From Escherichia phage 92CQ, in sequence record PV682554.1: a stretch of 64,000 nucleotides of DNA; one strand, written 5' to 3'. Positions 45,364 through 45,513 of the stretch are shown piece by piece. The first letter of the stretch is position 1, and every line of letters starts with the position of its first letter. Below the pieces are notes generated by a model. The model was not told the origin of the DNA. It saw nothing but the letters and a program-made list of their open reading frames with translations, and did no database searches. Position numbers and translations under genes: made by a program.

Positions 45364-45420
45364 TTGACAAAATTATAAATCGGGTAGAATGTATTTCGTA
45401 GGGCGGCAATAGTGCCGCTC
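45364..45420 (+). promoter_or_regulatory. orphan promoter-hairpin unit (TTGACA ... GCGGCA-ATAG-TGCCGC) with no ORF
   Basis: Leader hairpin followed by A-run and then a second copy of GAAAAAATAGTTTGACAA. Confidence 0.45.
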
Positions 45421-45433
45421 ACGAAAAAATAGT

Positions 45434-45495
45434 TTGACAATATGCGGTTATCTGGTAAAGTGTACGACATAGGGCGGGGCAATAAGGCAACGCCC
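45434..45495 (+). promoter_or_regulatory. early promoter (TTGACA-N16-TAAAGT) plus imperfect GC hairpin
   Basis: Duplicate of upstream -35 context; leader CGACATAGGGCGGGGCAATAAGGCAACGCCC. Confidence 0.5.
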
Positions 45496-45513
45496 ACTAA
45501 TGAGGGTAAAATC

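What the first reader, a model, noticed from the sequence alone, without database searches (positions are those of the whole stretch)
45364..45500. Orphan promoter-hairpin unit with tandem duplication and no ORF: possible small RNA or decoy
At 45364-45420 a full promoter plus GCGGCA-ATAG-TGCCGC leader is followed by an A-run and then by a second copy of the same 18-nt -35 context (GAAAAAATAGTTTGACAA at about 45353 and 45422), with no ORF in between. The first unit would produce a transcript of about 30-40 nt consisting of the hairpin alone. This could be a small RNA, a protein-titrating decoy, or simply a tandem promoter.
Basis: seen in the sequence. Interest (0 to 1): 0.55.

Follow-up and report, generated by a model that had tools for sequence, protein, structure and literature searches.

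The report
Leftover promoter of a deleted phage gene
The "orphan" promoter-plus-hairpin is the control region of a small early gene that this phi92-like coliphage has lost and nearly all its closest relatives keep, so it is a deletion scar in an array of shuffled promoter-hairpin-gene cassettes and not a small-RNA gene.

Summary
An exact 18-nt A-tract/-35 block occurs at 45353-45370 and 45423-45440. A sigma-70-type promoter and a stable hairpin (45401-45420) lie between the two copies, and no ORF does.

The window comes from a phi92-like myovirus (Justusliebigvirus). In the closest relatives (EC_OE_11, JohannJBalmer, Paula, phi92 and others) the same promoter and hairpin are followed by an RBS and a 64-aa gene, Phi92_gp243. 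In the window, 205 bp carrying that RBS and gene are replaced by a single G (45423).

This allele was found in no phage record, IMG/VR contig, JGI metagenome contig or Logan/NCBI contig searched.

The unit is one of at least 13 promoter-hairpin-RBS-gene cassettes at 38.2-46.3 kb. Relatives differ by gain or loss of such cassettes, with junctions inside the shared promoter or hairpin sequence. This is how the PeSLs of T4-like phages behave.

No terminator follows hairpin 1, so a 30-40 nt transcript is not expected. If promoter 1 is still active, it reads through promoter 2 into the 34-aa gene at 45514. Its spacer is 15 nt, against 16 nt in every relative.

One caveat: an error-like cluster of single-base deletions lies about 620 nt downstream, so the assembly should be checked. 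The finding is ordinary and of low interest.

The parts
45093..45362 (+). Upstream 89-aa early gene. Its stop codon TAG (45360-45362) lies inside repeat copy 1.
   Evidence: ORF list. A 270-nt CDS is annotated at the same place in relatives.
45353..45370 (+). 18-nt repeat copy 1: G + A6 + TAG + T + TTGACA + A. It combines a UP-like A-tract, the stop codon of the upstream gene and the -35 hexamer.
   Evidence: Exact match and repeat family D2.
45364..45390 (+). Promoter 1: TTGACA, 15-nt spacer, TAGAAT. This is the promoter of the lost gp243 homologue. Every relative has a 16-nt spacer (one extra C).
   Evidence: Sequence. Alignment A1. All full-length database matches are 64 nt against the window's 63. 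Not listed by the 16-18 nt consensus scan.
45401..45420 (+). Hairpin 1: GGGCGGCA / ATAG / TGCCGCTC, 8 bp including one G-U. It starts about 3 nt after the predicted transcription start (G 45398).
   Evidence: Folds. Identical to the hairpin in front of gp243 in EC_OE_11, Paula, PATM and phi92.
45421..45423 (+). Deletion junction. In close relatives, 205 bp lie between ...GCTCAC and AAAAAATAG...: the rest of the leader, the RBS and 62 codons of the 64-aa gene. In the window they are replaced by a single G (45423).
   Evidence: Alignment A1. Sequences compared. BLAST gaps of 1 nt in the window against 205 nt in Nernie and ESCO8.
45423..45440 (+). 18-nt repeat copy 2. In relatives the A6-TAG part encodes the last two Lys codons and the stop codon of gp243.
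45434..45461 (+). Promoter 2: TTGACA, 16-nt spacer, TAAAGT, with TG upstream of the -10 hexamer. This is the resident promoter of the 34-aa gene.
   Evidence: Promoter scan. Conserved in all alleles examined.
45472..45495 (+). Hairpin 2: GGGCG...CGCCC with an inner 2-bp stem. It forms the 5' leader of the 34-aa gene.
   Evidence: Folds.
45502..45618 (+). RBS (GAGGG) and the 34-aa membrane-peptide gene (ATG 45514), the first gene downstream of both promoters.
   Evidence: ORF list. phrog_14631, E = 2e-22. Annotated as a CDS in EC_OE_11 and JohannJBalmer.

Best explanation
The unit at 45353-45422 is the promoter and 5'-leader hairpin of a small early gene, the Phi92_gp243 homologue (64 aa, phrog_20168, function unknown). 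This genome has lost that gene's RBS and coding sequence.

The early region of phi92-like phages is built from repeated cassettes. Each has an A-tract and -35, a -10, a GC-rich hairpin at the very 5' end of the mRNA, an RBS and a small ORF. Related genomes differ by gain and loss of such cassettes through recombination inside the shared promoter or hairpin sequences, which is PeSL-like modular shuffling.

The deletion here did not use those homologies. It removed 205 bp between the 3' foot of hairpin 1 and the A-tract of the next promoter, so an empty promoter-hairpin was left directly in front of promoter 2.

Shown: the sequence anatomy, the deletion relative to all close relatives, the fact that the allele is private to this genome, the cassette family, and the enrichment of breakpoints in the units.

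Inferred:
1. Promoter 1, if still active, is weakened by its 15-nt spacer.
2. Its transcripts are not terminated. They read through promoter 2 and give a longer leader on the mRNA of the 34-aa gene, so the arrangement is an accidental tandem promoter.
3. The hairpins act in the RNA as 5'-terminal stem-loops that protect early mRNAs from RppH- and RNase E-dependent decay.
For: - **Identity of the window.** It is 95-99% identical to Justusliebigvirus phages.
- **The deletion.** In EC_OE_11, Paula and PATM the same promoter 1 and hairpin 1, base for base except one C, are followed by AACTAAAAGAGAAATCA-ATG and a 64-aa CDS annotated as a Phi92_gp243 homologue. The window lacks exactly this stretch.
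- **Nearest relatives keep the gene.** Both flanks of the junction are closest to genomes that carry the gene: EC_OE_11 is 97.3% identical on the left and 99.3% on the right, while outra, which lacks the gene, is 94.6% and 95.3%.
- **The allele is private.** No phage record has the junction in one piece. It has no exact match in IMG/VR or in JGI metagenomes. All 3 contigs that encode the identical 34-aa protein keep the gene.
- **The cassette family.** There are 13 promoter-hairpin units on the + strand at 38267-46212. In 11 of them a purine-rich RBS and a start codon follow within about 10-25 nt. The exceptions are this unit and 40115, which is followed by a second promoter. Units of the same kind occur in phi92 (10 distinct units) and AV125 (11 distinct units).
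- **Shuffling inside the motifs.** In outra the junction of cassette loss lies in the shared AAAAAATAGTTTGACAA. In AV125 it lies in the shared TAGGGCGG. In phi92 it lies in TAGGGCGGCAATAG. Of 40 distinct alignment breakpoints against 8 relatives, 20 fall in unit intervals that cover 12% of the region.
- **No terminator.** No U-tract follows the hairpins, and none of them was flagged as terminator-like.
- **Evidence for an RNA-level hairpin.** A pyrimidine-purine step lies 7-8 nt after the -10 hexamer in 10 of 13 units, which places the stem about 3 nt from the predicted 5' end. The stems differ by compensatory changes (GGCGGCA/TGCCGCC, GGCGGGAAA/TTTCCCGCC, AAGCGGGAA/TTCCCGCTT). G-U pairs that work only on the sense strand also occur. 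That 5' secondary structures stabilise mRNA is established knowledge (review PMC3997798).
- **PeSL concept.** Arbiol et al. 2010, PMC2839356.
Against: - The junction carries one base (G 45423) that is not templated by any sequenced relative, so at least two mutational steps or an unsampled parent are needed.
- Relative to the outra-type allele, the window looks like a 70-bp insertion flanked by a perfect 18-nt direct repeat. A recombinant origin therefore cannot be excluded.
- A patch of about 22 single-base deletions at 46038-46153 suggests local assembly errors. The private 1-nt spacer change, and less probably the 205-bp deletion, could therefore be artefacts.
- No transcription data exist for this phage group in the literature searched. 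Promoter activity, the transcription start site, read-through and the role of the hairpin are all inferred.
- A similar promoter-hairpin-promoter arrangement at 40115 is conserved among relatives. Such arrangements can therefore be maintained and might be useful.
Confidence: 0.8

Rival explanations
1. The empty unit is kept because it is useful. Under this view it is a true tandem promoter: P1 plus P2 raise or re-time expression of the 34-aa gene and its downstream neighbours, and the unit is not a neutral scar.
For: P1 keeps a perfect -35 hexamer, a 5/6 -10 hexamer and the A-tract. No terminator separates it from 45514. A promoter-hairpin-promoter arrangement at 40115-40225 is conserved in many relatives.
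Against: The arrangement at 45364 occurs in no other genome. Relatives drive the same gene from P2 alone (outra) or from a single hybrid promoter (AV125). The P1 spacer has shrunk to 15 nt, outside the 16-17 nt range of the family.
Confidence: 0.12
2. Sequencing or assembly artefact: the real phage carries gp243, and the 205-bp gap (and/or the 1-nt spacer deletion) arose during assembly or finishing.
For: An error-like cluster of about 22 single-base deletions lies 620 nt downstream, at 46038-46153. Both lesions are private to this sequence.
Against: Collapse of a repeat would join the two 18-nt copies and give the outra-type junction, not CTCAC-G-AAAAAA. Outside the clusters the window is clean, for example 0 gaps over 10.6 kb against EC_OE_11. 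Loss of this cassette is common in nature, as about 19 of the 60 listed records lack it.
Confidence: 0.1
3. Gain rather than loss: an ancestor of the outra type, with no gp243 cassette, acquired a 70-bp promoter 1 plus hairpin 1 fragment from a gp243-carrying phage through one homologous and one illegitimate crossover.
For: Relative to outra, the window has a 70-bp insertion flanked by a perfect 18-nt direct repeat. The G at 45423 and the T at 45441 match the outra allele exactly.
Against: Both flanks are nearer to gp243-carrying genomes than to outra. This route still needs an illegitimate junction. Either way the fragment is the gp243 control region without its gene.
Confidence: 0.05
4. The unit is a dedicated small RNA or a protein-titrating decoy. 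A short hairpin RNA is made from P1 and acts on its own.
For: A strong-looking -35 hexamer and A-tract, a stable hairpin (-16.9 kcal/mol), and hairpin sequences of the same type at the 5' end of several early mRNAs, so a shared binding factor is conceivable.
Against: There is no terminator or U-tract, no Rfam match and no conservation of the empty unit anywhere. The spacer is suboptimal at 15 nt. The identical sequence is simply the leader of a protein-coding gene in relatives.
Confidence: 0.03

Closest known systems
PeSLs (promoter-early stem-loops) of T4-like phages phi1/RB49, PST and nt-1 (Arbiol et al. 2010, PMC2839356; Comeau et al. 2014, PMC4122927)
   Same: Both are composite motifs made of an AT-rich tract that holds the upstream stop codon, a consensus sigma-70 promoter, a GC-rich stem-loop, and the SD and start codon of a small ORFan. 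Both occur in many copies clustered in a plastic early region. In both, indels between close relatives have their junctions inside the motifs.
   Different: - The lineage is different: Stephanstirmvirinae, not T4-like.
- The stem-loop always lies downstream of the -10 hexamer, at the predicted 5' end of the mRNA. In phi1 it is mostly between or over the promoter hexamers.
- No U-tract follows it, and terminator activity is untested.
- The window's unit has no cargo gene, and its deletion did not use the PeSL homologies.
- I found no paper describing PeSLs in phi92-like phages in the library searched. The phi92 genome paper could not be read.
5'-terminal stabilising stem-loops of E. coli mRNAs (ompA, papA; Emory, Bouvet and Belasco 1992, cited in review PMC3997798)
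   Same: A stable hairpin lies within about 3 nt of the predicted transcript 5' end, followed by an RBS and an ORF. Such structures hinder RppH and 5'-end-dependent RNase E.
   Different: The transcription start site is only predicted here, and stabilisation is untested. In the orphan unit no translated ORF of its own follows the hairpin.
Tandem promoters in front of one gene (for example gal P1/P2 or rrn P1/P2; from general knowledge)
   Same: Two sigma-70 promoters lie 70 bp apart on the same strand with no terminator between them, and both face the same gene.
   Different: In this case the arrangement arose by loss of the intervening gene and is private to one genome. The upstream promoter has a suboptimal 15-nt spacer.
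Intrinsic (Rho-independent) terminators
   Same: A GC-rich hairpin in an intergenic position. Automatic annotation of phages Paula and PATM labels some sister hairpins 'terminator'.
   Different: No U-run follows hairpin 1 or any promoter-linked hairpin. Real terminators in the window (46695 and 47541) do have one.

Membership tests
PeSL (promoter-early stem-loop cassette) | Sigma-70 consensus promoter with an AT-rich upstream tract that contains the stop codon of the upstream gene | tested here: met
   TTGACA at 45364 and TAGAAT at 45385. The A6-TAG tract at 45354-45362 holds the stop codon of ORF 45093-45362. Caveat: the spacer is 15 nt.
PeSL (promoter-early stem-loop cassette) | Stable stem-loop as part of the motif | tested here: met
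   Hairpin at 45401-45420, -16.9 kcal/mol, z = -4.3 to -5.2.
PeSL (promoter-early stem-loop cassette) | Shine-Dalgarno sequence and start codon of a downstream small gene at the 3' end of the motif | tested here: not met
   In the window, hairpin 1 is followed by CACG and the next promoter. In relatives the same unit is followed by an RBS and the 64-aa gp243 homologue.
PeSL (promoter-early stem-loop cassette) | Many copies clustered in a plastic region of small genes of unknown function | tested here: met
   13 units on the + strand at 38267-46212 and none of this type elsewhere on that strand. phi92 has 10 distinct units and AV125 has 11.
PeSL (promoter-early stem-loop cassette) | Indels and replacements between close relatives have their junctions inside the motifs | tested here: met
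   Junctions in outra, AV125 and phi92 lie in the shared promoter or hairpin sequence. 20 of 40 breakpoints fall in units that cover 12% of the region (the breakpoints are not independent).
PeSL (promoter-early stem-loop cassette) | The stem-loop terminates or attenuates transcription; mini-circles are formed | not testable with these tools
   Needs reporter assays or PCR on phage DNA. By sequence there is no U-tract after the hairpins.
Independent small-RNA gene | A defined 3' end (terminator) that gives a discrete short transcript | tested here: not met
   No terminator-like site between 45391 and 45513. Hairpin 1 is followed by ACGAAAAAAUAG.
Independent small-RNA gene | Conservation of the unit as such in related genomes, or a match to a known RNA family | tested here: not met
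   The allele is absent from 50,697 phage records, from IMG/VR, from JGI metagenomes and from the 3 contigs with the identical neighbouring gene. There is no Rfam match at this locus, and the region gave only sub-threshold chance hits elsewhere.
5'-terminal mRNA-stabilising stem-loop | The stem begins within a few nucleotides of the transcript 5' end | tested here: inconclusive
   The start site is predicted only: a pyrimidine-purine step 7-8 nt after the -10 hexamer in 10 of 13 units, which leaves about 3 unpaired nt. No experimental start-site data were found.
5'-terminal mRNA-stabilising stem-loop | Lengthens mRNA half-life in an RppH- and RNase E-dependent way | not testable with these tools
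   Needs half-life measurements with and without the hairpin.
Intrinsic terminator | GC-rich hairpin immediately followed by a U-run | tested here: not met
   The hairpin is present but no T-run follows it on either strand. It was not flagged by the scan, which did find 46695 and 47541.
Tandem duplication | Two adjacent copies that are alike over their whole length and derive from one another | tested here: not met
   Only 18-21 nt are identical, plus 28 nt at 75% identity. Both units already exist, separated by gp243, in relatives.

The most novel reading that the evidence does not exclude
The conserved 5' hairpins (TAGGGCGG... stems with ATAG or TGG loops) are operators for a phage or host RNA-binding factor that co-ordinates early gene expression. 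Under that reading, the cargo-less copy at 45401-45420 yields, after cleavage in the A-rich linker, a free hairpin RNA that competes for the factor, which makes it a natural decoy.
Probability: 0.04. Interest if true: 0.55.

Novelty: new member of a known kind. Interest (0 to 1): 0.18.

Why it matters
On its own it matters little. It is a private deletion scar that removed a dispensable 64-aa early gene of unknown function; about a third of the listed relatives lack that gene altogether.

Its modest value is as a clear example of a wider pattern. phi92-like coliphages build their early region from PeSL-like promoter-hairpin-gene cassettes and shuffle them by recombination inside the shared motifs, as described for T4-like phages.

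The empty unit and its gene-carrying counterparts also form a natural allele series: 0, 1 or 2 cassettes, hybrid promoters, and an empty promoter. Such a series could be used to test what the 5' hairpins do, and how promoter spacing and tandem arrangement affect early expression in phages used for therapy.

Tried and rejected
- **Exact-pattern scans of IMG/VR.** I scanned for the junction, for hairpin 1 and for promoter 2. All three returned nothing. That collection apparently lacks these sequences, so it gave no diversity data.
- **Metagenome scan for the junction.** It found nothing.
- **Contigs encoding the exact 89-aa upstream protein.** None is on record. The 34-aa protein gave 3 contigs, and all of them keep gp243.
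- **Rfam at a permissive threshold over 38000-47500.** It returned only three sub-threshold hits elsewhere.
- **Pfam and PHROGs for the deleted and flanking proteins.** They gave only families of unknown function.
- **Formal pair counting on the hairpins.** My MAFFT test alignment was badly set up and mis-registered the 3' arms. I dropped the formal count and read compensatory changes directly from the listed stems.
- **The phi92 genome paper.** It is not held. The phi92 record annotates only RBSs. No start-site or transcriptome paper for this phage group was found.
- **Breakpoint chains for BME3 and muut.** The greedy chains started on a spurious repeat match, so those two rows are unreliable. 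The enrichment does not depend on them alone.

Readings considered and rejected:
- Intrinsic terminator, because no U-run follows the hairpin.
- Tandem duplication, because the units differ and both pre-exist in relatives.
- The minus-strand ORFs 45300-45590 and 45224-45409, because they overlap conserved plus-strand genes and would be broken by the 205 bp present in relatives.
- An N-terminally extended 58-aa product from the ATG at 45442, because it has no RBS and the ATG is not conserved.

Full report
**Observation.** The 18-mer GAAAAAATAGTTTGACAA occurs exactly at 45353-45370 and 45423-45440. Allowing 3 mismatches, the window has 4 matches against 0.24 expected. The repeat finder reports the same pair 70 nt apart.

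Unit 1 consists of TTGACA (45364-45369), a 15-nt spacer, TAGAAT (45385-45390) and the hairpin GGGCGGCA/ATAG/TGCCGCTC (45401-45420). The hairpin folds at -16.9 kcal/mol, with z = -4.3 to -5.2 against shuffles.

Unit 2 consists of TTGACA (45434), a 16-nt spacer and TAAAGT with an upstream TG. A second hairpin (45472-45495), an RBS and the ATG at 45514 of a 34-aa membrane peptide follow (phrog_14631).

No credible ORF starts between the two units. The units are not copies of each other beyond the 18-21 nt block and a 28-nt stretch at 75% identity.

**What the window is.** It is 95-99% identical to phi92-like myoviruses of E. coli, subfamily Stephanstirmvirinae, genus Justusliebigvirus. EC_OE_11, JohannJBalmer and PaulScherrer are 98.7-98.9% identical over the 7.4 kb upstream of the finding. 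The region from 38 to 60 kb is a run of small plus-strand genes of unknown function.

**The key result.** Every close relative aligns to this locus in two pieces, with about 205 extra bases. The direct alignment shows that EC_OE_11, Paula and PATM have the same promoter 1 and hairpin 1, identical apart from one C. In them these are followed by AACTAAAAGAGAAATCA, an ATG and a 64-aa CDS annotated as a homologue of Phi92_gp243 (phrog_20168, unknown function). Its last codons, AAA AAA TAG, form the A-tract of promoter 2.

In the window these 205 bp are replaced by the single G at 45423. The "orphan" is therefore the control region of a gene that is missing here. Both flanks of the junction are most similar to genomes that carry the gene (EC_OE_11 97.3% and 99.3%; outra 94.6% and 95.3%). 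That points to a deletion in a gp243-positive ancestor.

**The allele is private.** None of the 150 or so matching phage records holds the junction in one piece. The junction has no exact match in IMG/VR or in JGI metagenome contigs. The three contigs that encode the identical 34-aa protein all retain gp243.

The 15-nt spacer of promoter 1 is also private. All full-length matches are one base longer, which gives a 16-nt spacer. The other 12 units in the window have spacers of 16 or 17 nt.

**The family.** A strict scan finds 13 promoter-hairpin units, all on the plus strand between 38267 and 46212. In 10 of them a pyrimidine-purine step lies 7-8 nt after the -10 hexamer, usually as CATAGGGCGG. 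The predicted transcript would therefore start about 3 nt before the stem.

In 11 of the 13 units the hairpin is followed within about 10-25 nt by a purine-rich RBS and a start codon. The exceptions are this unit and the one at 40115.

The stems differ between units by compensatory changes: GGCGGCA/TGCCGCC, GGCGGGAAA/TTTCCCGCC and AAGCGGGAA/TTCCCGCTT. Several contain a G-U pair that works only on the sense strand. This suggests selection on an RNA structure.

None of the hairpins is followed by a U-run, and none was flagged as terminator-like. True terminators at 46695 and 47541 were flagged.

Units of the same kind are found in phi92 (10 distinct units in 13.9 kb) and in the Phapecoctavirus AV125 (11 distinct units). 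Simpler ones are found in the Vequintavirus FFH2.

**Modular shuffling.** The locus is polymorphic. Among the 60 best records the alleles are as follows:

| Allele | Records (approx.) |
|---|---|
| gp243 cassette present | 27 |
| gp243 cassette plus a second cassette | 5 |
| a different cassette (BME3 type) | 4 |
| a different cassette (PD06 type) | 3 |
| no cassette, promoter 2 retained (outra type) | 19 |
| no cassette, hybrid of promoter 1 and hairpin 2 (AV125 type) | 2 |

The junctions lie inside the shared sequences. In outra the junction is in AAAAAATAGTTTGACAA, and in AV125 it is in TAGGGCGG. In phi92 it is in TAGGGCGGCAATAG, where promoter 44791 is fused directly to hairpin 1 and gp243, so the two genes at 44874-45362 are absent.

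Across 38000-47600, 20 of 40 distinct alignment breakpoints against eight relatives fall inside unit intervals that cover 12% of the sequence. The binomial p is 5e-9, but the breakpoints are not independent and two of the chains were poor.

This is the behaviour described for the PeSLs of T4-like phages: strong sigma-70 promoters with an AT-rich tract and a stem-loop, clustered in hyperplastic regions, mediating indels by recombination between motifs (PMC2839356; PMC4122927).

The window's own deletion is different. Its ends lie just 3' of hairpin 1 and just 5' of the A-tract, with no shared homology and one untemplated base. It was therefore an illegitimate event, which is why an empty promoter-hairpin was left behind instead of a clean cassette loss.

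**How it most likely works now.** This part is inferred. Promoter 1 keeps a perfect -35 hexamer, a 5/6 -10 hexamer and the A-tract, but it has a 15-nt spacer. From general knowledge of sigma-70 promoters, a 15-nt spacer is well below the 17-nt optimum. Because no terminator follows either hairpin, any transcript that starts near 45398 should run through promoter 2 into the 34-aa gene and carry a leader of about 115 nt with two hairpins. A hairpin-only RNA of 30-40 nt is not expected.

For the family as a whole, I take the hairpins to be 5'-terminal stem-loops that protect early mRNAs. RppH and RNase E need a single-stranded 5' end, and the stabilising effect of 5' structures is long established (PMC3997798). 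My confidence in this role is moderate. A role as binding sites for a regulator, or as attenuators, is not excluded.

**Caveat on sequence quality.** While comparing the flanks I found about 22 single-base deletions within about 115 nt at 46038-46153, relative to both EC_OE_11 and JohannJBalmer. The sequence between them is perfectly identical. They scramble the C-terminal third of a conserved 128-aa protein.

This looks like a low-quality patch in the assembly. Isolated private small indels are otherwise rare, about 9 in 36 kb, and the spacer deletion is one of them. The 1-nt spacer change, and with lower probability the 205-bp deletion, should be confirmed on the reads. A repeat-collapse artefact would give the outra-type junction, which is not what is seen here.

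**Comparison and novelty.** The unit works like a PeSL that has lost its cargo. It meets the defining features of promoter, AT-rich tract with stop codon, stem-loop, clustering and indel junctions. It fails the feature "SD and start of a downstream gene". The terminator and mini-circle features could not be tested.

It is not an sRNA gene. It has no terminator, no conservation and no Rfam match. It is not an intrinsic terminator and not a tandem duplication.

I found no description of PeSL-type cassettes in phi92-like phages in the library. The phi92 record annotates only RBSs, and the phi92 genome paper could not be read.

**Verdict.** This is a new member of a known kind, and for the specific finding it is an ordinary deletion scar. 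Interest is 0.18.

Noticed in passing
window 46038-46153 (inside ORF 45841-46191): About 22 single-base deletions within about 115 nt relative to EC_OE_11 and JohannJBalmer, with perfect identity between them. They scramble the C-terminal part of a conserved 128-aa protein, which is 116 aa in the window. This looks like a low-quality stretch of the assembly rather than biology.
   Followed up: partly
window 40115-40257: A second promoter-hairpin-promoter arrangement with no ORF between: TTGACA-17-TAATAT, hairpin GGGGCaacGCCCC, then TTGACA(40193)-17-TATAAT without a hairpin, then ATG 40258. Unlike the unit at 45364, it is conserved in one piece in many relatives, and JohannJBalmer is 100% identical.
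   Followed up: partly
window 40246-40437: The 59-aa gene 40258-40437 is 93-96% identical at the DNA level to a gene of rV5-like phages (Vequintavirinae: FFH2, V18, rV5_ev158). The match starts right at the RBS. Other phi92-like phages (phi92, PD06, muut, ECGD1) lack it. This looks like a cassette exchanged between subfamilies.
   Followed up: partly
window 41893-41916, 42712-42736, 45052-45073: GC-rich hairpins of the same style with no promoter in front of them. At least those at 41893 and 45052 lie a few nucleotides upstream of an RBS, between co-oriented genes. The hairpin module can therefore occur without the promoter module.
   Followed up: no
window 47067-47110; also 43416, 43807 and 44028: Strong consensus promoters without a stable hairpin. 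The one at 47067 keeps the CGTAGGGC start motif but has no 3' arm, so it may be a unit whose hairpin was lost. Several breakpoints against relatives cluster at 47071-47109.
   Followed up: no
window 35273-36262: This gene is 329 aa here and 390 aa in EC_OE_11 and JohannJBalmer. The alignment breaks at 35310-35359, and a divergent patch with in-frame multi-codon indels lies at 35477-35607. This appears to be real variation.
   Followed up: partly
database records MG065639, MG065645, MG065656, MG065689 and others: Between 15 and 19 GenBank records named 'Campylobacter phage' with host C. jejuni are about 95% identical to this E. coli phi92-like or rV5-like sequence. They probably reflect co-isolated coliphages or mislabelled hosts.
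   Followed up: no
window 62555 (minus strand): The only promoter-hairpin hit on the minus strand: TTGACA-18-TATAAT followed by AAAGCCCC aagca GGGGCTTT. Its style differs from the plus-strand family.
   Followed up: no
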